Assembly: GCA_964016885.1 (NCBI GenBank)
Contig: OZ024749.1
Coordinates: 29,698,001-29,762,000 of the forward strand
Length of the DNA stretch: 64,000 nucleotides
Direction of reading: 5' to 3'
From: Eledone cirrhosa
Taxonomy: Eukaryota
Below, one piece after another: positions 6,737 through 64,000 of this stretch. The first letter of the stretch is position 1. Every line of letters starts with the position of its first letter. The notes under the pieces are model-generated. The model did no database searches and was not told the origin of the DNA. It saw only the letters and a list, made by a program, of their open reading frames with translations. The translations under genes were made by a program, and so were the position numbers.

Positions 6737-6740
<4 letters not shown>

Positions 6741-7079
6741 AAAATATTTGACCCCGACAGCAGAGCTCAAGCCGTTTCAACGGCTATTTCTGGCTGGCCA
6801 GTCCAGAAATATCAGTCGAAACGGCTTGAGCTCTGCCGTCGGGGTCAGATATTTTACTATTACCCACTCTACTAGCCTAAGTATTGAGTACTCTGGTGCG
6901 TTATGGTCCATCAGGTTCCTTACCACACCTCCTTCGTTATTTATATATGTATATATATATATATATATAGGACAATGTTTAAACCCGACGGCAGAGCTCA
7001 AGCCGTTTCGAGGGCTATTTTTAGTATTGAGTACTCTGGTGCGTTATGGTGCATCTGGTTCCTTACCACACCTCCTTCG

Positions 7080-8472: not shown

Positions 8473-8778
8473 TAATAATCCAAAGACCAAAATCCAAAGA
8501 GGAGTCGATAAGGGTTATATATATATATATAGAAAAAAGTATGACCCCGACGACAGAGCTCAAGCCGTTTCGACGGCTATTTCAGAAATAGCCATCGAAA
8601 CGGCTTGAGCTCTGCCGTTGGGGTCAGACTTTTTCCTATTTCCCACTCTACTACCCTAAGTATTGAGTACTCACTCTGGTGCGTTATGGTCCATCTGGTT
8701 CCTTACAATTCCTTTGTTATATATATATATATATAACCCTTATCGAGTCCTCTTTGGATTTTGGTCTTTGGATTATTA
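8473..8778. mobile_element. Composite: family B fold-back (8531-8720) bracketed by an inverted pair of family D fragments
   Basis: ATAATCCAAAGACCAAAATCCAAAGAGGAGTCGATAAGGGTTAT (8474-8517) is the reverse complement of 8734-8777. Confidence 0.7.
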
Positions 8779-13089: not shown

Positions 13090-13262
13090 ACGAAGGAATT
13101 GTGGTAAGGAACCAGATGCACCATAACGCACCAAAGTACTCAATACTTAGGTAGTAGAGTATATATATATATATAGGAACAAATATGACCCCGACGGCAG
13201 AGCTCAAGCCGTTTCGACGGCTATTTCTGGCTTAAGCTCTGCCGTCGTGGTCATACGTGTTC

Positions 13263-13266
<4 letters not shown>
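13088..13266. mobile_element. Family B fold-back element (reverse orientation)
   Basis: Reverse complement of the family B tail plus the GACCCCGACGGCAGAGCTC palindrome. Confidence 0.8.
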
Positions 13267-13293
<27 letters not shown>

Positions 13294-13623
13294 CTATATA
13301 TATATATATATATATAAGTTAAAACAATGAAATAAAAAATCAAGTCATTAGAGATATACTTCACTGCTTTACGATCGTTTCTAGGTGATGATAATACATT
13401 GTAGCAATACATAGGCAGAATAGACCCCCCAACTTACTGTGGATACCTCTGTATATATATATATATATATATACATAGACATATACACATATATATATAT
13501 ACATATACATATACAGATATATGTACATCCATGCATATATAAATACATGCATGCATACGTACATACGTATATACATACACGCACACATATAAATACATAC
13601 ATACGTAAATACGTAGACAAACA

Positions 13624-24779: not shown

Positions 24780-26003
<1,224 letters not shown>

Positions 26004-39821: not shown

Positions 39822-39890
<69 letters not shown>

Positions 39891-39894
<4 letters not shown>

Positions 39895-40922
39895 TAATAA
39901 AATAATGAATAAACAAAGAAACAGTTCCTTATATTAAAAAAAATTCATCATTTTACGATCGTTTCTAGGATATATATGTGTTAGAGTTGGTATGCATATT
40001 CTATAGATCTATGTACAATATTTATACAAACTATCAGAGGGAATATACATACCTACACATATATATGCTGTCTTATCATAAAATTTTAGTCTCCTTAGAT
40101 ATTTGCATTGGCATTACTGGTTTATAACAGCAACTGCTCATATACCTTTTACTGACCTGACCTATTTTCACCCCTAAAATAACTTTCTCATTCTTCACAC
40201 TCCATTCAAAACTGAAATCTGCCTTATTCTACCCCTAAAATAAGCTTCAATTACTACTATTTTACCATTTGGCCAATTATTAACTTTCTATTGGTTAATT
40301 CTAAACCTCTTACCAAACAGACAGAATATATTAGATCTTTGTTGGTTTTATTCAATGAACAAATATAATTATTTCTGAGGTCAGCATACGACCTATTTTC
40401 ATCCCTAAAATAATCTTTCATTCATAATATTCTTTTCCATCCAAAACTGAAATCTACCTTCCTCTACCCATAATTTAAGGTTCTTCTACTACTATATTAC
40501 TATCTTGACCCTCACTATCTCTCTATTGGTCAATTCAAAACCTGTTCCCAAACAGACCTATTGTATTGAATCTTTGTTTTTTTCAATAAACAAATATCAT
40601 TATTTCTGAAGACAGCATATATATGTGTAGGTATGTATATTCCCTCTGATAGTTTGTATAAATATTGTACATAGATCTATAGAATATGCATACCAACTCT
40701 AACACATATATATCCTAGAAACGATCGTAAAATGATGAATTTTTTTTAATATAAGGAACAGTTTCTTTGTTTATTCATTATTTTATTAATTTATCTTGAC
40801 TCTGTTTTCCGTTAATTTTCACCGAAAATAGTTTTTGAATGCATCTTCTCTTTTCATGATATCCGGATTACATTGAGTTCTTCATACGGATTGGACACTA
40901 CCGTAAATTTTTGGTAGATTTA

Positions 40923-40928
<6 letters not shown>
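39891..40928. mobile_element. Family G element: 180-bp inverted arm, ~240-bp direct repeat and hammerhead terminus (Penelope pseudo-LTR-like)
   Basis: 39891-40073 is the reverse complement of 40610-40792; 40160-40388 is repeated at 40390-40619; (TA)n on both sides; homologue at 61663-62075. Confidence 0.8.
40597..40738 (+). ncRNA. Type I hammerhead ribozyme with ~105-nt extended stem II (family G)
   Basis: TCATTATTT-CTGAAGA-[long stem II]-GAAA-CGATCG-TA-AAATGATGA; 9-bp stem I, palindromic stem III, GUA site after 40729. Confidence 0.8.
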
Positions 40929-42695: not shown

Positions 42696-45600
42696 TCAGA
42701 TATTCAGGACGTATCGGAGGGTTCTTGCCGTTCCAAGCAAGCATGCCTTTTGAAGCGTTCCAAAAAGCGTGAAGGGGCCGATTTTCTTTAACCATCCCTG
42801 GAAACCTTTGGAGATAGTCCCCAGTGCGCCTATGACAATCGGGATCACTTTGACTTCATGGCAGTTCCAAATCCTTTTCACCTCCCACTTTAGGTCCTGG
42901 TATCGGTTAATTTTCTCCCTCTCCTTCTCTTGCACTCTCGTGTCGAACGGGCAGGCCACATCCACAATCAGGCACGATCTTTTTTCTTTGTCCACAACCA
43001 CCAGGTCAGGTCTATTGTGTTCCAGTTTTTTGTCCGTCTGTATCCTAAAATCCCACAGCACCTTCACCTGACTGTTCTCCATCACCGCCTCTGGCCTATG
43101 CTCATACCATTTCTCAGAATGTGGTAGATTGTTTACTTTGCACAGGTGCCAGTGGATCACCCTGCCCATCACATCGTGTCTCCAGCCCTTATAGTGGGTC
43201 TGGGCTAGGTGTTTACACTCGGACACAATGTGAGCCACAGTCTCCTCTCTCTCTCCACAGATCCTGCACAGTGGGCTAGCCTCCTCCTTGTAGATATGGT
43301 GCTTCAACCACTTCGTTTTGAGGGCCTGCTCCTGCGCAGCCATTAGCATTCCTTCTGTAGCCTTTTTGAGGTCTCCTCTTCTCAACCAGTTCCATGTCTG
43401 TGGATCTCTAAATTCAGTTTTCTCAAAGAAGGTACTATGAAGGGATTTTCCCTTAAGGCTGCTCTTCCTCCTTGATGTTATTTCCTCCTTGGGTATCCCC
43501 TGGCCTACTGTCCCCTCCTTCAGTACAGCTCTGAGCATTGGATCCTTACTATAGGTCACGTATTTGTATAGGTTGTTTTTCTCCATCTGAACACAGTCCT
43601 CTATGCTGATAAGACCTCTTCCACCCTCAGATCTCCTTAGGTAGAGTCTATCGACATCACTCCTCTTGTGGAACATGTTGTAGATAGTCAATAGCTTCCT
43701 AGTCTTCCTATCCATTTCTTTTTGTTCAGCAACATTCCATCTCAGAATTCCCGCACTGTACCTAATAATAGACACAGCTCGGGAATTTACTGCGCTTATG
43801 GCATTTCTGCTGTTCAGATGTGACTTCAATACGCTCCTTACTCTCCGAATGTATTCAGTTCTTAACAATTCCTTCATTTTTTTGTTCTTTATGCCATCAG
43901 CCTCCAGAACGCCCAAATACTTGTATCCTTCCTCAGAGTCAATTTCCTTTATCATCTCACCTGTTGGTATCTGGATCCCGTTACTTCTGCTCAACCTACC
44001 CCTCCTCATCACAATGACTCCACATTTACCAATACCAAACTGCATACATATATCACTGCTGAAAATACGGACAGTGTCAACAAGCACATCCAACTCCTTC
44101 TCACTTTTCCCGAAGAGCTTAAGATCGTCCATGAAGAGGAGGTGATTGATGGTAAGCTCTCCCCTTCCCAACTTGTATCCTGCTCTCACTTTTCGCAGCA
44201 TAATGGTCAAGGGCATCAGGGCAAGGACAAACAACAGAGGGGACAGGCTATCTCCCTGGAAGATACCTCTCTTGATCTTCACGCCTCCCAAGGATACTCC
44301 AGTTGATGTCAACTCTGTCTCCCAGGACCCCATACTCCTGCCCAGCAACTGTCTGATGTTATCTGCCACCCTGAAGATCTCCAGGCTTTTGGTGATCCAG
44401 GAATGAGGCACCATGTCAAATGCCTTTCTGTAGTCTATCCATCCCATGGCAAGATCAGTGTGTCTCCTCCTGCAATTCCCCATTACCATCTTATCAATAA
44501 GCAACTGGTCCTTTGTACCACGTGACTTCTTTCGGCATCCTTTCTGTTCGTCCGGCAACAAGTTGTTTGTGTGGAGGTGATGGTAGATTTCCTCAGACAC
44601 AATGCTCGTCAACAGTTTCCACATTACGGGCAGACATGTGATAGGTCTATAGTTGGTAACATCATTACCCTTGATTCGGTCTTTCATTATCAGAACTGTG
44701 GTACCTTTTGTCAACCACTCTGGCACCTCACCCGACACCAAGCAGTCATTGAACATGGCCGTCAGCTTCGGGTGGAGGGATGTTAAATGTTTAATCCAAT
44801 ACCCCTGCACACCATCTGGGCCTGGTGATTTCCAGTTGGTTAGTTTTTTGGCTTGCCCCTTAAGAGTTTCAACTGTGATACTCAAATCAGTCTGTTGCTG
44901 TGCCTGCTCACCGATCTCCCTCTGTACTGTCTCAATCCACCCTGCCTGGGCATTGTGTCTAACATCCTGCTCCCATATTCCTCTCCAGAATGTTTTAGCT
45001 TGTTCCGCCCCAGGGATCAAGTCGGTGCCTCTTTCTTTCCCCTCAAGCTGTCCAAACAGCATCTTCTGGCTGTTGTCGAACATGCGGTTCTGTTTATACT
45101 GACTGACTCTGTTCTCGTATCGCCTGATTTTGGCACTCTTTGCTACAATGCGTTGCTTCAATTCCTCTATGATAATATTTAGCTTTTTACTCCTAGTTTT
45201 GTATTTTATTTCCAGTCTATTTTTAGTGCCTATGTTTTTTAGTGTCCCATTCAGCAGTGACTCAAGCTTTCCTATGTCATTTCTCATTTCCCCGATTTGC
45301 CCACTCAGTCGCTTCTTCCACCACGGCTCTGCTCTTTCTTGTCTGTTGTTTCCTCTCGCTTTTATACCAAGTAGTTTCCTCACCGTATTTGCTGTTGCTT
45401 TGAGGATATTGTTGCACTGGTGAAGACTCCTCGCCTCAAGGTATGGGATGACTTTGTTTACCTTAGCTGTTGTTTCTTTTAACTTTTTCCTGTCTACAAA
45501 TCTTAGGTTCATAGGTCTCCCACTATCATTGTTCAACTCATCTACCACTAAATTTAGGATGTCAACCGAATCTTGTCCTAGCCCGTCAGCATTCATCTCC

Positions 45601-46088
45601 TCAGTGGCCGTATCTCTGTTCCAGGTATTATTTATCTCAGTATTCAGATCATTGTCTGCTTCGGGTGGTTCCTCCGCTCTCAGGACCTCCTCACCTTCAT
45701 TTCCCGCCGGCTCGCTTGTCTGGCATACTACACCCGCCATCTCCAAGCCATTCTCTCTGCTCAGTTCCTCCAGTTCCAGCTCACTTATCCACCCATTAGT
45801 TCTTATTACCCGAGCCTGCCCGGCCAATTTTTGTTCATCTAATTTAAATAAACCAATCTCGTTCCAGATGTTATGCATCCGTCTCCTGTAGCCCCTCTCC
45901 TTGGGGTTACTTTTCAGGTAGCATTGCATAACAGTTCTATTCAATTCTTTCGTCCAGTTGGTTCTGGCCCCTTTCCTTCTTCTTCTTCCTCCAACATCAG
46001 CAGTATTTCGTTGACAGTCAGGTTCCTGCTGCTGAGCCAGGGGGCACCTGTTGGGTGAGAGTCTGTCACATGACGTTCTAGTCTCCAT
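42696..46088 (-). CDS. RT-RLE polyprotein (reverse transcriptase, CCHC zinc knuckle, restriction-like endonuclease), 1130 aa, uninterrupted
   Basis: [48 protein letters not shown]; [18 protein letters not shown]; RHD; [15 protein letters not shown] endonuclease motifs. Confidence 0.95.
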
Positions 46089-46657
46089 TTCACCGTTATT
46101 CGAACTGTTTATGTTCGATATTTAAACACTCTTATCGAGGATTGGCGAATGTATGTTTACATAGCCATCTGTGGATCCGCCATCCCACTTGGCCCTTGTG
46201 TGGCATTATCACCACGCTGTATACGGACACACATAAACAAACAAACACACGGGCAGAAAGGGCCCCAAAAATGAATAAGCATAAGTTTCATTGTAATGTA
46301 GTATTCGAATGTCTGACTTAGTTTTTGTTTTTTAAGTTTTACTTTTTCCCCCCTCTTCTCTGTCCGTCCGCCTGCTTCTCTCTTCATTCTTATTTTCTTT
46401 ACGTTTTTGGGGTTTCTTTTTTTGTTTTTGTTTTTCTCTGTTTTTCTCGTTTTTTACTGTTGTTGCTGTGCTGCTTTTGTTGTTTGTTTTTTCTTTTTTC
46501 TTTTGAGTCTATCTATATATTTTGATGCCTTCCTCTTTGTTAGTAGTAGGAATTCTATAATGTGGAAGTGGTAGCCAGCAGAGACTAGCGGCGTTGGCGA
46601 TACTGAGACAGTGGTGGCGGTGATGTCGATACCGAGGCAGTGGTGGCGGTGATGCGA

Positions 46658-47546: not shown

Positions 47547-48845
47547 CTTGAATCTCAGTCATTGATGTTGGTTAACTGGAAAGTCCGTTGGAATGAATAT
47601 CAAGCCACTACCTGCAGCCTCAGATATTCAGGACGTATCGGAGGGTTCTTGCTGTTCCCAGCAAGCATGCCTTTTGAAGCGTTCCAAAAAGCGTGAAGGG
47701 GCCGATTTTCTTTAACCATCCCTGGAAACTTTTGGAGATAGTCCCCAGTGCGCCTATGACAATCGGGATCACTTTGACTTCATGGCATTTCCAAATCCTT
47801 TTTACCTCCCATTTTAAGTCCTGGTATCGGTTAATTTTCTCCCTCTCCTTCTCTTGCACTCTCGTGTCGAATGGGCAGGCCACATCTACAATCAGACACG
47901 ATCTTTTTTCTTTGTCCACAACCACCAGGTCAGGTCTATTGTGTTCCAGTTTCTTGTCCGTCTGTATCCTAAAATCCCACAGCACCTTCACCTGATCGTA
48001 CTCCATCACCGCCTTTGGCCTATGCTCATACGATTTCTCAGAATGTGGTAAATTGTTTACTTTGCACAGGTGCCAGTGGATCACCCTGCCCATCACATCA
48101 TGTCTCCAGCCCTTATAGTGGGTCTGGGCTAGGTGTTTACACTCGGATACAATGTGAGCCACAGTCTCCTCTCTCTCTCCACAGATCCTGCACAGTGGGC
48201 TAGCCTCCTCCTTGTAAATATGGTGTTTCAACCACTTCGTTTTGAGGGCCTGCTCCTGCGCAGCCATTAACATTCCTTCTGTAGCCTTTTTGAGGTCTCC
48301 TCTTCTCAACCAGTTCCATGACTGTGGATCTCTAAATTCAGTTTTCTCAAAGAAGGTACTATGAAGGGATTTTCCCTGAAGGCTGCTCTTTCTCCTTGAT
48401 GTTATTTCCTCCTTGGACATCCCCTGGCCTATTGTCCCCTCCTTCAGTACAGTTCTGAGCATTGGCTCCTTACTATCAGTCACGTATTTGTATAGGTTGT
48501 TTTTCTCCATCTGAACACAGTCCTCTATGCTGATGAGACCTCTTCCACCCTCAGATCTCCTTAGGTAGAGTCTATCGACATCACTCCTCTTGTGGAACAT
48601 GTTGTAGATAGTCAATAGCTTCCTAGTCTTCCTATCCATTTCTTTTTGTTCAGCAACATTCCATCTCAGAATTCCCGCACTGTACCTAATAATAGACACA
48701 GCTCGGGAATTTACTGCGCTTATGGCATTTCTGCTGTTCAGATGTGACTTCAATACGCTCCTTACTCTCCGAATGTATTCAGTTCTTAACAATTCCTTCA
48801 TTTTTTTGTTCTTTATGCCATCAGCCTCCAGAACGCCCAAATACT
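47545..48845 (-). mobile_element. 5'-truncated R4/Dong copy (same subfamily as the full-length one)
   Basis: 406-aa ORF nearly identical to the C-terminus of the 1130-aa protein; (TAA)n on both sides. Confidence 0.95.
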
Positions 48846-48863
48846 GTTATTATTATTATTATT

Positions 48864-49471: not shown

Positions 49472-51083
49472 TGTTCTTTGAGTCTCAGTCATTGATGTTA
49501 TTTAACTGGAAAGTTTGTTGAATTGACTATCAAGCCACTACCTGCAACCTCAGATATTCATGACGTATCGGAGGGTTCTTGCTGTTCCCAGCAAGCATGC
49601 CTTTTGAAATGTTCCAAAAAGCGGGGCGGGACAAATTTTCTTTAACCAGCCTTGGAAACTCTTTGAGATAGTACCTAGTGCACCTATGATAATCGGGACC
49701 ACTTTGACTTCATGGCAGTTCCAGATCCTTTTTACCTCCCACTTAAGTCCTGGTATCGGTTAATTTTCTCCCTCTCCTTCTCTTGCACTCTTGTGTCGAA
49801 TGGGCAGGCTACATCCACAATCAGGCACCATCGTTTTTCCTTGTCCCAAACCACCAGATCAGGTCTATTGTGTTCCAGTTTCTTGTCCGTCTGTATCCTA
49901 AAATCCCACAGCACCTTCACCTGATCGTTTTCTATCACCGGCTCTGGCTTATGCTCATACCACTTCTCAGAATGTGATAAATTGTTTACTTTGCATAGGT
50001 GCCAGTGGATCACCCTGCCCATCACATCATGTCTCCAGCCTTTAGAGTGAGTCTGGGCTAGGTTTTTACACTCGGATACAATGTGAGCCACAGTCTCCCC
50101 TCTCTCTCCACAGATCCTAAACAGTGGGCTAGCCTCCTCCTTGTAAATATGGTGTTTCAGAATTCCCGCACTGTACCTAATAATAGATACAGCTCGGGAA
50201 ATTACTGCACTTATGGCATTCTTACTGTTCAGGTGTGATTTTAATACGCCCCTTACTCTCCGAATGTATTCAGATCTTATCAATTCCTTCATTTTTTTGT
50301 TCTTGATATCATCAGCCTCCAGAACACCCAAATATTTGTATCCTTCTTCAGTGTCAATTTCCCTTATCATCTCACCTGTTGGTACCTGGATTCCGTTGCT
50401 TCTGCTCAATTTACCCCCTCTTCATCACAAGGACTCCACACTTACTAATACCAAATTGCATACATATATCATTGCTGAAAATACGGACAGTGTCAACAAG
50501 CACATCCAACTCCTTCTCACTCTTCCCGAAGAGCTTAAGATCGTCCATGAAGAGGAGGTGATTGATGGTAAGCTCTCCCTTTCCCAACCTGTATCCTGCT
50601 CTCACTTTTCGCAGTATAATGGTCAGGGGCATCAGGGCAAGGACAAACATCAGAGGTGACAGACTATCTCCCTGGAAGATACCTCTCTTGATCTTCACGC
50701 CTCCCAAGGATTATCCAGCTGATGTTAACTTTGTTTTCCAGGACTTCATACTTTTGCCCAACAACTGTCTGATGTTATCTGCCATCTTGAAGATCTCTAG
50801 GCTTTTGGCGATCCAAGAATGAGGCACCATGTCAAATGCCTTTTTGTAGTCTATCCATCCCATGGCAAGACCAGTGTGTCTCCTCTTGCAATTCCTCATT
50901 ACCATCTTATCAATAAGTAACTGGTCCTTTGTACCACGGGACTTCTTTCGGCATCCTTTCTGTTCGTTCGGTAACAAGTTGTTTATGTGGAGGTGATGGT
51001 AGATTTCCTCAGACACAATGCTTGTTAACAGTTTCCACATTACGGACAGACATGTGATAGGTCTATAGTTGGTAACATCATTA
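49472..51083 (-). pseudogene. Diverged, truncated R4/Dong copy (subfamily B) with frameshifts/stops and an internal deletion
   Basis: ORF pieces 50711-51040, 50411-50707 and 49732-50409; YSAGIL fused to KHHIYKEE. Confidence 0.9.
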
Positions 51084-51246
51084 AAAATACGAATTTCGGT
51101 TACTGGATCTGGATGGCATTGATACCAGTTTTAGATTGTTTCCTCTTGATAGAATTTACATATTTTCCAGTAGATGTACTGCTCAACTGTATCATGTCTG
51201 TTTTTGTAATTCAGACAGTACTAAGGTGGTGTAGGTACGTATTAGA

Positions 51247-52415: not shown

Positions 52416-52708
52416 GTTCTTTGAGTCTCAGTCATTGATGTTATTTAACTGGAAGGTTTGTTGAAATGAATATCAAACCACTACCTGCAGCCTCAGACAT
52501 TCAGGACGTATCGGAGGGTTCTTGCTGTTCCCAGCAAGCATGCCTTTTGAGGTGTTCCAAAAAGCGGAGCTGGACTAATCTTCTTTAACCATCCTTGGAA
52601 ACTCTTTGAGATAGTACCTAGTGCGCCTATGACAATCGGGACGACCTTGATTTCATGGCAGTTCCAAATCCTTTTTAATTCCCACTTTAAATCCTGGTAT
52701 CGGTTAAT
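52416..52708 (-). mobile_element. Short 3'-end R4/Dong copy (subfamily B)
   Basis: TGTTCTTTGAGTCTCAGTCATTGATG end as at 49472; 5' side joins (TTC)n then (TTA)n. Confidence 0.9.
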
Positions 52709-52855
52709 CTTCTTCTTCTTCTTCTTCTTCTTCTTCTTCTTCTTCTTCTTCTTCTTCTTCTTCTTCTTCTTCTTCTTCTTCTTCTTCTTCTTCTTCTTCT
52801 TCTTCTTCTTCTTCTTCTTCTTCTTCTTCTTCTTCTTCTTCTTCTTCTTCTTCTT

Positions 52856-52886
<31 letters not shown>

Positions 52887-53511
52887 TTATTATTATTATT
52901 ATTATTTTCTATTTTTGATTCCAGATCTCCGGGATTAATCTGAATGGACTTCTAAACTAACAAAGAAAAATACATACCGGAAACTACAAAAAACGACAAA
53001 CAAAAGCCCCCCCCCCCCCCACCAAAAAAAAAACAAACCCAAAAGAAATTAAAAAAAAAAAAAAAAAAATCCCACACAGTTCTCAGGGTAGATACATTGG
53101 AAATATAAAGATGAATCTCGGAAAATGTTTTAGTGATCCGAACCTTACCTCATCTTGATGCGATGTCTATTAAATTATTTACGTAAGCATTAGTTATGAA
53201 GCTACTGCAGGAGTAAAGATGCGGTTATTATGTTGATGTTGGTGGTGTTCGCGACATAATTATCTCAACGAGAATTAACTGTGAGTGTTTTAGTCCTTAA
53301 TTTAGATATTTTTAGTTTTTTTGTCGTTGTTTTTTTTTTGCTATTTTTATTAGATAAGCAAATAAATACTTAAGTCAATCAATCATCTGACAATTTAATA
53401 AATAAATGAATAAATTAATTTGTAAAAAAACAAACAAGTAATATTATATCGTATTCCAAAGTCGAGAAACCGACAGAATATATATAACTCCCACACGGAT
53501 TCACACACACG

Positions 53512-53732: not shown

Positions 53733-54053
53733 ATGATATACTTAAATGTGAGTACAACCACCTCGTCGGTGTTGTTAAGTTTAAGCACAGAAGCGATGGA
53801 GATTGAAGATAAAAGCAATGACAGCGAGGATTACATATACGACTACACTGATTCTGTTAACACTTTCCCTCTCAAAGAACTCATTCCTGTTACTCTTATA
53901 TACGGCATTGTCTTCATATTTGGTCTGTTTGGCAACTTTCTGGTTATATTTACCATTTTGAAGTATCGCCACATGAGGAATATTACCAATGTGTTTCTAC
54001 TCAGTTTATCGTCTGCTGACTTATTGGTAGTCTTAATTTGCGTGCCAGTTAAG
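53733..54053 (+). CDS. First coding exon of a class A (rhodopsin-like) GPCR, neuropeptide-receptor-like (N-terminus, TM1, TM2)
   Basis: N-glycosylation sequons (NVS, NDS); TM1 ...GLFGNFLV; MRNITNVFLLSLSSADLL TM2 motif; ends CVPVK at phase-0 donor AAG|GTAAGT (54054); no further exon recognised in window. Confidence 0.9.
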
Positions 54054-61662: not shown

Positions 61663-61665
<3 letters not shown>

Positions 61666-62075
61666 GATAAATCTACCAAGAGTTTACGGTAGTGTCCAAT
61701 CCGTATGAAGAACTCAATGTATTCCGGATATCATGGAAAGAAGAGATGTAATGAAAATCCAATTTCGGTGAAAGATAAACGGTATACAGAGTCAAGATAA
61801 AATATTAAACAAATAATGAACAAACAATTCCTTATATTAAACAAAAAAAGTTCACTATTTAACGATCGTTTCTAGGGCATATATGTGCTATAATTGGTAT
61901 GCATATTTAACAGATCTATGTACAAAATTATACAAAATTATACAAATTATCAAGATTAAATATACATACCTAACTCATATATACGCCGTCTTCAGAAATA
62001 ATGAAGTATATTTATTGATAATAACAACAATTCAAAATATCAGTTCAAAATTGACCAATGAAAACACAAAGGGTT
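61663..62075 (-). mobile_element. Family G element, second copy
   Basis: Reverse complement of ~40520-40925 (TACGGTAGTGTCCAATCCGTATGAAGAACTCAATG etc.). Confidence 0.8.
61852..62004 (-). ncRNA. Type I hammerhead ribozyme with extended stem II (family G)
   Basis: Minus strand TCATTATTT-CTGAAGA-CGGCGTATATATG...CATATATGCCCTA-GAAA-CGATCG-TT-AAATAGTGA; GUU triplet. Confidence 0.75.
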
Positions 62076-62774
62076 AAAAAGCAGTTTGGTGTGTGTATAT
62101 ACATGTAAAACCCTACACACATTTTACAATAATGTGTGTATAATATGTATGTGCATACTAAAAAGATGGATGCAAATAAAAAATTTCAAGGTTAATATCT
62201 CTGTAAGCTTAATGCGCTGATAAGATACGCAATGATACTTATGTAGTCAAGCATATAAATATATTTTTTTCATACTCACACATATCAGTATAATCACACA
62301 TACATGTGCGTATATATATAAATATACACATAACCACGAACACACAAACACACACACACCCCCCACTCACATTTATATATGTGGATATAAAATCATAAGC
62401 AAATAGAAATTAAGTCACTCACATAAACACACTGGTACACACATTTCAAGATCAAGATACAGAAATTAGGTGGGAGGGGGGGGGAGGGGTCAGTATTAGG
62501 TTGTCAGACCAGACAGCCTAATATAAATGTATCTATAAATTATGAAAAATAAAAAAATAAAAACAATAAAATATATTACATATAATATAATATACATACG
62601 CATACAGATATACATACACATACATACATGTACGCGCACATAGAGATATCTACACATACATACATACACACATACCTATACTGTCATACACACACATACA
62701 TTTACACGAACATACATATACACATATAAAAAGATAAAAATACGGACACACACACGCGCAACACATACACACAT

Positions 62775-62821
<47 letters not shown>

Positions 62822-62930
62822 TATACACACACACACATAGACTCATATATATATACATACACATACATATACTTATACATAAACATATATATCCCACACT
62901 CATACCACCATGAAGACACAAACAAAACAT

Positions 62931-62982
<52 letters not shown>

Positions 62983-63074
62983 ATACACACACGTACACAT
63001 ATATGCATATATACATACATATATACACACATACACATATATATATATACACACACACATAAAATACAGACATG

Positions 63075-63111
<37 letters not shown>

Positions 63112-63207
63112 TTCATTACCCTTATATATACTCACAGTATATATACATACACAACCTCACTTATACACATATACACATAAGTTATATTACAATAATAATA
63201 AAGAATA

Positions 63208-63238
<31 letters not shown>

Positions 63239-63510
63239 TATACACACATATACACATATACATACATACACATACATATACATACATACATACACATACA
63301 TACATACACCTAAATATAAACATATATAAATACACACATACGAATAAAGACATATATTCACACATAGACACCTATATACACATATACATATATATATATA
63401 TATATATATCTATATATATCTATATACAGACACATACACATACATACACATATATATATATATATACACATATATACACACGCACACACATACAGACACA
63501 CATACACACT

Positions 63511-63545
<35 letters not shown>

Positions 63546-64000
63546 GTGTATGTGAGTGTGCGCAAATACATACATATATATACACACACACACATACAAA
63601 CACACACAAACACATACATATGCATACATGCACACACACACACATATATCACATAGATACGAAGATAAACATATAAATAGAGAGACATACAAATATATAC
63701 AGAACCCATATACACATACATGCAAACACGCATATACATATATACATATATACACACATATATATTCCTATATACAAGCATACGCATACACACACATATA
63801 TACAAATACCTACACATATATATACCACACATTCACATACACGTACATATATAATACATATATATACATACATATACATACATATGTATGTACAATCATA
63901 TATACACACTCAATCTTACATTCATATTTACATGCTCATATATGTATTTTTATATCTAGAAATAAATACCAAAAAAAACTATATAGACACCCATCTACCC

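What the first reader, a model, noticed from the sequence alone, without database searches (positions are those of the whole stretch)
40597..40738. Family G hammerhead with a ~105-nt stem II supported by covariation
Seen: between CTGAAGA (40606-40612) and GAAA (40718-40721) lies a long hairpin: CAGCATATATATGTGT/ACACATATATATCCTA, GGTATGTATATTC/GAATATGCATACC, TGTATAA/TTGTACA. The second copy (61852-62004, -) has double substitutions that preserve pairing (A-U to G-C at stem II pair 5; C-G to U-A at the end of the GGUAUGUAUAUUC helix) and shifts a G.U in stem I. Stem III is the palindrome CGAUCG, suited to dimeric cleavage. Inference: RNA structure was selected in the source elements; standard searches with short stem-II limits would miss this variant. 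A third fragment is at 13361-13388.
Basis: partly seen in the sequence, partly recalled or inferred. Interest (0 to 1): 0.85.

Follow-up and report, generated by a model that had tools for sequence, protein, structure and literature searches.

The report
Retrotransposon hammerhead with giant stem II
A young jumping gene present in about 15,000 copies carries a hammerhead-ribozyme motif whose normally tiny side arm has grown into a 100-125-base hairpin kept paired by matching mutations; it likely still cuts RNA as a dimer, and the Rfam scan does not detect it.

Summary
CUGAAGA (40606) and GAAAC-GAUC-GUA (40718) flank a 105-nt rod (z -5.5). The motif sits in the pseudo-LTR of a Hydra-clade Penelope-like retrotransposon (812-aa RT plus GIY-YIG ORF). 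Its 3' half has 14,874 exact genomic matches against 2 for the control. Across seven subfamilies, 117 of 119 majority cells of stem I and proximal stem II pair, while arms swapped between lineages pair at 2-5 of 7. One lineage swaps core pair C3-G8 for U3-A8. A tip motif is 91-100% conserved although the arms are 40-69% alike between lineages. Related elements from other organisms have 10-25 nt here (53 of 77 loci), and Rfam finds nothing. Against: C.A replaces the usual G10.1-C11.1 pair; about a quarter of copies start 7 nt before the core, so were likely copied from uncut RNA; no RNA reads or cleavage data exist. Verdict: a real, selected RNA structure and a new variant of a known kind. Cleavage is likely but untested.

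The parts
40597..40605 (+). stem I, 5' strand; many genomic copies begin at the position of A40599 (7 nt before C3), inferred RNA 5' end
40606..40612 (+). core C3-A9, CUGAAGA (UUGA[A/C]AA in lineage B)
40613..40717 (+). 105-nt stem II rod: C.A, A-U, G-C, C.C at the base, then 12-bp and 13-bp helices and the tip
40648..40677 (+). conserved tip motif: 3-bp helix, 4x3 internal loop, apical helix with variable loop
40718..40721 (+). core G12-A15.1
40721..40728 (+). stem III: 8-nt palindrome; 2 bp plus tetraloop as monomer, 8 bp as dimer (predicted); predicted cut after 40729
40730..40738 (+). stem I, 3' strand
40795..40925 (+). optional tail between the two common 3' ends of copies (about +65 and +200 after the predicted cut), followed by (TA)n
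40075..40925 (+). 5'-truncated, ORF-less copy of the A1 subfamily of the Penelope-like element
40159..40388 (+). older 230-nt duplication (77% alike to 40390-40619) shared by A1 copies, ending in a decayed 5' core half
39889..40074 (-). inverted partner copy, 99.5% identical, lacks CUG, ends at the short 3' end in (TA)n
61851..62005 (-). second complete motif (subfamily A2c, 116-nt stem II, GUU cut triplet)
61665..64000 (-). 3' pseudo-LTR and microsatellite-rich 3' UTR of an intact element; its ORF (98% identical to P0001) and a second motif about 6.2 kb upstream lie just beyond the window (L239)
13312..13410 (-). lineage B fragment, 3' half of the motif only

Best explanation
This is a type I hammerhead motif in the pseudo-LTR of a young, high-copy Hydra-clade Penelope-like retrotransposon; its stem II is a 99-126-nt rod kept paired by compensatory changes, and it likely cuts slowly and only when two copies pair through the 8-nt stem III palindrome. 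Shown: host element, copy number, fold, covariation of stems and of core pair 3-8, a conserved tip, and 5' ends piling up 7 nt before the core. Inferred: transcription likely starts at that position, so the motif heads the element RNA. Reverse transcription likely starts about 65 or 200 nt past the cut site. RNA that is still uncut would give the short and head-to-head copies. In tandem elements the two motifs, 6.2-6.7 kb apart, would pair and release a unit-length RNA. The conserved tip is likely a protein-binding handle, for example for the element's own ORF protein. This last step is the weakest.
For: Host: motif flanks an 812-aa RT/GIY-YIG ORF in L031, L036 and L239; at least 150 near-identical ORF starts, most in open frames of about 830 codons. 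Structure: z -3.3 to -6.4 for 7 of 7 subfamily representatives, sense fold stronger than antisense in 6 of 7. Covariation: 117 of 119 majority cells pair; slid partners give 7-35 of 56 against 55 of 56; cross-lineage arms pair 2-5 of 7; simple null P about 0.002. Core: C3-G8 in 79 of 79 A/D copies, U3-A8 in 56 of 58 B copies; position 7 is the only core site besides 3 and 8 that varies much (A 92, C 40, other 5 of 137); position 17 is never G in the triplets listed for the 141 captured copies. Dimer is 11-15 kcal/mol below two core-free monomers in 8 of 8 representatives. Published parallels: dimer-dependent, weak PLE hammerheads (PMC4209133); protein-assisted cleavage and use of uncut RNA in the anole element (PMC11167929).
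Against: No cleavage or RNA data. The base before G12 is A opposite C, with a C.C mismatch three pairs further, so the usual G10.1-C11.1 pair is missing. A rod in which the core pairs with the GAAA side has predicted probability 0-0.84 depending on the copy and flank. No copy starts exactly at the cut site: 6 of the first 79 downstream-anchored sites start within 11 nt of it, scattered (list comparison by eye). RNAalifold on a sequence-only MAFFT alignment of 47 copies recovered stem I and the tip but not the proximal or middle helices; the covariation count needs a core-anchored register, and lineage A arms are (UA)n, so changes may not be independent. Shared within-subfamily variants keep the pair in 17 and break it in 9 cells. 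Copies were captured by core-like patterns, which inflates core conservation. The tip never varies, so its pairing is unproven.
Confidence: 0.65

Rival explanations
1. The RNA structure is selected, but catalysis has been lost or is negligible; the motif serves only as a scaffold for the element's protein at the RNA 5' end.
For: C.A and C.C at the base of stem II; copies derive from RNA spanning the cut site; in the anole element cleavage was not needed for insertion in vitro (PMC11167929).
Against: The tertiary 3-8 pair switched in concert, position 7 varies freely, position 17 avoids G and stem III stays palindromic. Mismatched 10.1-11.1 pairs are common in Hydra-clade motifs and U.U is reported in a natural hammerhead (PMC3088659).
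Confidence: 0.2
2. The core is a working hammerhead, but the long arm is neutral baggage made and kept symmetrical by fold-back and template switching during reverse transcription.
For: These elements make inverted and reiterated junctions all the time; arms are AT-rich; length varies from 90 to 126 nt; unrelated families in this genome also have long inserts of different folds (53, 72, 75, 84 nt).
Against: Template switching gives Watson-Crick symmetry on both strands, whereas representatives hold 22 sense G.U pairs and 0 A.C 1x1 loops (the sense fold favours finding G.U). The tip is 91-100% conserved between lineages whose arms are 40-69% and flanks 36-66% alike. Private mutations break pairs in 20 of 29 cases, but majority states almost never do.
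Confidence: 0.1
3. The conserved tip is a DNA element of an internal promoter just downstream of the start site, not an RNA motif; the rod only spaces it.
For: The tip lies about 50-80 nt downstream of the inferred start; the Drosophila Penelope promoter has elements downstream of its start site (PMC2377424); tip pairs show no covariation.
Against: Both strands of the tip are conserved and complementary across an apical segment whose length varies (15-26 nt including the closing helix).
Confidence: 0.05

Closest known systems
Hammerhead motifs of Hydra-clade Penelope-like elements (Craig et al. 2021, PMC8557442, section 11 and File S2)
   Same: Same host clade by protein motifs and (TA)n targets; type I, sense strand, in the pseudo-LTR; palindromic stem III; extra opposed bases at the foot of stem II.
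   Different: Published Hydra rows have at most about 26 nt between A9 and G12, and 53 metagenome relatives 10-25 nt; here 99-126 nt with a conserved tip. The unit is 6.2-6.7 kb with a 3.8-kb microsatellite-rich UTR, against under about 3 kb; the tail is about 135-140 nt, against 30-40 bp.
Minimal hammerheads of metazoan PLEs, including the U3-A8 variant of Schistosoma Cercyon (Cervera and De la Pena 2014, PMC4209133)
   Same: Core, extra base after A9, palindromic 15.2-16.2, dimer requirement, U3-A8 covariation, back-to-back copies.
   Different: Their helix II is 7-8 bp at most with conserved G10.1-C11.1; here about 32-43 predicted pairs and C.A.
sCYDV-RPV (+) hammerhead (PMC1636495, Table 1)
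   Same: Natural hammerhead with an atypical long helix II broken by internal loops; A at the cut site.
   Different: Only 13 bp in three segments, stable 6-bp helix III, viral satellite RNA.
PLE-X1 hammerheads of Selaginella and Chara (PMC8557442, File S2)
   Same: Longest PLE stem II regions seen in the tables read (about 54 nt in PLE-X1_sMoe); C.A at the stem II foot in PLE-X1_cBra.
   Different: Different clade, half the length, single examples marked as deviating, no covariation reported in that table.
PAc Poseidon element of the green anole (PMC11167929)
   Same: Two internal RT start sites bounding a tail; uncut RNA used as template; no reads at the cut site.
   Different: Short stem II overlapping the ORF start; here the ATG is 353 nt past the cut site.

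Membership tests
Hammerhead ribozyme, type I | Core CUGANGA (or U3-A8), GAAA and UH in order | tested here: met
Hammerhead ribozyme, type I | Three helices around the core, open at stem I | tested here: met
   stem I 9-10 bp with covariation at pairs 3-4; stem II rod; stem III 2 bp as monomer, 8 bp as dimer
Hammerhead ribozyme, type I | Usual (not invariant) G10.1-C11.1 pair next to G12 | tested here: not met
   C.A in the majority of all 7 subfamilies; natural exceptions exist, so this lowers expected activity rather than excluding membership
Hammerhead ribozyme, type I | Match to an Rfam hammerhead model | tested here: not met
   no hammerhead family among 10 matches at E up to 10 in 40500-40850; expected for a 105-nt insert
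Hammerhead ribozyme, type I | Site-specific self-cleavage | not testable with these tools
   no assay; no RNA run was offered
Hammerhead ribozyme, type I | Stem I-stem II tertiary contact | not tested
   the invariant C.C at pair 4 is a candidate only
Hydra clade of Penelope-like elements | Single ORF, RT then C-terminal GIY-YIG | tested here: met
   read from the translation; Pfam gave no hit
Hydra clade of Penelope-like elements | RWK-like motif, DKT, CxCX5C linker, CxxC and CxH around E and N | tested here: met
   RWR, DKT, CNCRNKTNC, CRLC and CNH in P0001 against section 11 and Fig. S7 rows
Hydra clade of Penelope-like elements | CCHH motif absent | tested here: inconclusive
   P0001 has two Cys between its GIY- and YIG-like motifs, family C has one; not aligned to CCHH-bearing endonucleases
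Hydra clade of Penelope-like elements | (TA)n targets, partial tandems, inverted 5'-truncated partner, tail | tested here: met
Hydra clade of Penelope-like elements | Placement in the Hydra clade of an RT tree | not tested
   named reference proteins were only readable in a supplement, not usable in a call
Non-LTR retrozymes | Short non-coding tandem units each with a hammerhead | tested here: not met
   tandem units are 6.2-6.7 kb and coding; short copies are single or head-to-head

The most novel reading that the evidence does not exclude
An active ribozyme has acquired a selected 100-nt appendage ending in a protein-docking loop that lets the element's own reverse transcriptase decide when the RNA is cut, and long-armed hammerheads are a hidden, repeatedly evolved class in this animal lineage that descriptor and Rfam searches cannot see; some Penelope-like elements said to lack hammerheads may carry them.
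Probability: 0.3. Interest if true: 0.78.

Novelty: new variant of a known kind. Interest (0 to 1): 0.56.

Why it matters
What hammerheads do in Penelope-like elements is an open question (PMC8557442 and PMC4209133 say so). Here a recently active element with many intact copies offers natural core swaps, a separable conserved module and a genomic record of RNA ends, so cleavage, protein binding and retrotransposition can be tested on one system.

Tried and rejected
DNA search of the own genome with the 156-nt motif found nothing because simple and common words are skipped. Pfam gave no hit for the ORF. Naiad and Nematis were considered and dropped: the endonuclease is C-terminal and the linker is CxCX5C. 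miRNA-family hits are low-complexity matches far under their thresholds. No RNA holder listed; four contig runs laid on copy 2 showed only allele-like variation and cannot show RNA ends. Cap-copy test: among the first 100 of 3,105 sites lacking the -8 C, the base was G 22, T 24, A 54 (counted by eye), so no G excess; rejected. Seven of the 25 junctions at -7, and 6 of 30, abut a SINE inserted at that spot, with element sequence on the far side in 6 of the 8 SINE cases printed; they were discounted. Four mis-anchored or chimeric rows were dropped before counts (141 to 137). A single-protein metagenome scan found no relatives; the alignment scan did. Family E (84-nt branched insert, 84 exact sites) could not be tied to an ORF. 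Inserts of families F (53 nt) and G (72 nt) do not fold better than shuffles (z -0.6 and -1.0). Earlier-findings look-ups by words, place and sequence found no record of this motif. Lunse et al. 2017 (PMC5785218) is not held.

Full report
Observation. The window is G000:C9:29698001-29762000 of a 3.0-Gb, microsatellite-rich animal assembly. The 105 nt between CUGAAGA and GAAA fold into one rod (-33.8 kcal/mol, z -5.55, 0 of 200 shuffles). The two double changes and the moved G.U in the second copy are real. The third fragment is a core-less piece of another lineage. Rfam reports no hammerhead in 40500-40850 at E up to 10.

Host element. The 15-mer covering G12 to the cut site has 14,874 exact matches against 2 for the reversed control. 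In L031 two motifs 6,680 nt apart flank an 812-aa ORF with RT and C-terminal GIY-YIG motifs and a 3.8-kb UTR full of (TA)n and (TG)n. The 150 scored ORF starts listed are 98-100% identical, most in open frames of about 830 codons, so the family is young. The protein carries the marks given for the Hydra clade in PMC8557442 section 11: RWR for RWK, DKT, a CxCX5C linker, CxxC and CxH around the conserved E and N; copies end in (TA)n. No RT tree with named references was built. The window's second copy is the 3' pseudo-LTR of an intact element whose ORF lies just past the window (L239). The first copy is a truncated, ORF-less insertion with an inverted partner, the usual PLE layout.

Covariation. 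From all fetched loci, 278 3'-half hits gave 225 with a 5' core and 141 distinct copies; 4 mis-anchored rows were dropped, leaving 69 A, 58 B and 10 D copies in seven subfamilies. A lineage-B locus has ORF pieces mostly 58-83% identical to P0001 (L209). Anchored on the core, majority bases pair in 62 of 63 stem I cells and 55 of 56 cells of stem II pairs 5-12; sliding the partner by 1-3 gives 7-35 of 56; arms swapped between lineages pair at 2-5 of 7 positions. A simple redraw null for lineages B and D gives P about 0.002; it treats positions as independent, which the (UA)n arms of lineage A may not be. Pair 5 is seen as A-U, G.U and G-C, and the end of the middle helix as C-G, U.G and U-A, so both changes have sense-strand wobble intermediates. 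Private mutations break pairs in 20 of 29 cases, as expected of decay after insertion; shared variants keep 17 and break 9. Against this, RNAalifold on a sequence-only alignment of 47 copies found stem I and the tip but not the two long helices, because the aligner shifts the arms.

Core. Lineage B (1,007 exact sites of its own 3' 17-mer) has U3-A8 in 56 of 58 copies where A and D have C3-G8 in 79 of 79; position 7 varies; position 17 is A, U or C. Capture patterns and the B label partly enforce this, but B was first collected by its 3' side. U3-A8 is a published natural variant (PMC4209133). The foot of stem II is C.A, R-Y, G-C, C.C in all subfamilies (A.C at pair 2 in D). Opposed extra bases are common in Hydra motifs, but C.A is rare, and it may lower activity. 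Stem III is an 8-nt palindrome; two copies fold into a double hammerhead 11-15 kcal/mol below two core-free monomers.

Tip. A 3-bp helix, a 4x3 internal loop and the apical helix are 91-100% identical between lineages whose arms are 40-69% and flanks 36-66% alike (the segments were located by that motif). It is conserved for a reason not shown here; a protein-binding site is my inference.

How unusual. Hydra rows of File S2 reach about 26 nt and PLE-X1_sMoe about 54. In this genome other families have 14-44, 53, 72, 75 (family C, 45-50% protein identity, U3-A8, z -2.3) and 84 nt, so long arms recur here. Paper searches showed no report of a natural PLE hammerhead with a stem II of this size; the closest natural case seen is the 13-bp segmented helix II of sCYDV-RPV (PMC1636495). 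Lunse et al. 2017 could not be read and may bear on this.

Record of RNA ends. Of 162 distinct copies with upstream sequence, 56 lose homology 0-8 nt before C3, 25 of them exactly at -7; 7 of those 25 abut a SINE, and partners of inverted pairs are not independent. Genome-wide, 3,105 of 9,634 exact sites lack the -8 C; 6 of 30 inspected were SINE insertions, so about a quarter of copies start there. Junctions are fold-back palindromes or reiterated short repeats that restart at -7. I infer a defined RNA 5' end, likely the transcription start; its context resembles an animal initiator (recalled, not tested); a cap-G test was negative. No copy starts at the cut site; 6 of 79 start within 11 nt, scattered (part of the table was cut, the rows near the cut site were shown). 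3' ends cluster near +60-70 and +190-205, like the two RT start sites of the anole element (PMC11167929) but with a longer tail. So short copies likely come from uncut RNA; long ones from uncut read-through or religated RNA. This fits slow, conditional cleavage, and it does not prove any cleavage.

Papers seen. PMC4209133: main text parts 1-2 of 4, passages, supplement PDF parts 1-2 of 3. PMC11167929: parts 1-2 of 4. PMC8557442: passages, section 11, supplement parts 1-2 of 59 and one search. 10.64898/2026.07.22.740005: part 1 of 5 and passages; supplements not seen. PMC6765202, PMC6155905, PMC2377424, PMC10085705, PMC3088659, PMC1636495: passages only.

Verdict. Real, selected RNA structure (about 0.9); a member of the PLE hammerhead kind by core, context and covariation, with one usual feature not met; cleavage likely (about 0.65-0.7) but untested.

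Noticed in passing
window 42696-46121 (-), partial copies 47620-48846, 49732-51130, 52493-52951: Open 1,141-codon frame of a non-LTR retrotransposon with RT and a C-terminal restriction-like endonuclease motif, in a stack of partial copies (class read from motifs, recalled).
   Followed up: no
window 3894 (+), 17044 (-), 17837 (+), 18170 (-): Four further hammerhead motifs of other families with 26, 18, 31 and 38 nt between the core halves; the last two face each other.
   Followed up: partly
window 53776-54053 (+): Likely first coding exon of a class A GPCR (TM1-TM2-like sequence, ends at GTAAG), with a decayed partial duplicate right after it (family recalled).
   Followed up: no
L031:4426-8170; window 62080-64000: The element's 3.8-kb 3' UTR is made largely of (TA)n and (TG)n tracts copied at 99.8% identity between tandem units, so the element spreads microsatellites.
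   Followed up: partly
L303/L304, L290-L292, L275: 5' junctions hold two to three reiterated copies of the first 11-17 nt of the inferred RNA, a repeat-addition pattern that recalls the telomerase kinship of this RT.
   Followed up: partly
L020, L046, L131, L170, L172, L220, L224: One SINE-like family repeatedly inserts at the same spot in the 5' strand of stem I, with a short target duplication.
   Followed up: partly
L055 and L397-L416: Family E: hammerhead with an 84-nt branched stem II, a different palindrome and A.A at its foot; 84 exact sites of its 18-mer; host ORF not found.
   Followed up: partly
L140, L141, L148, L150, L154, L158, L161: Family C: older Hydra-like family with U3-A8 core, 75-nt stem II and an imperfect palindrome, about 247 nt before its ATG.
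   Followed up: partly
window 6740-6790, 6970-7020, 8530-8580, 13175-13265: Another dispersed repeat, often as back-to-back pairs, with a CGAAACG-type word on its minus strand; probably another PLE-derived family.
   Followed up: no
window 24857-25644 (+): Fragment of a LINE-type RT C-terminus between (TA)n tracts.
   Followed up: no
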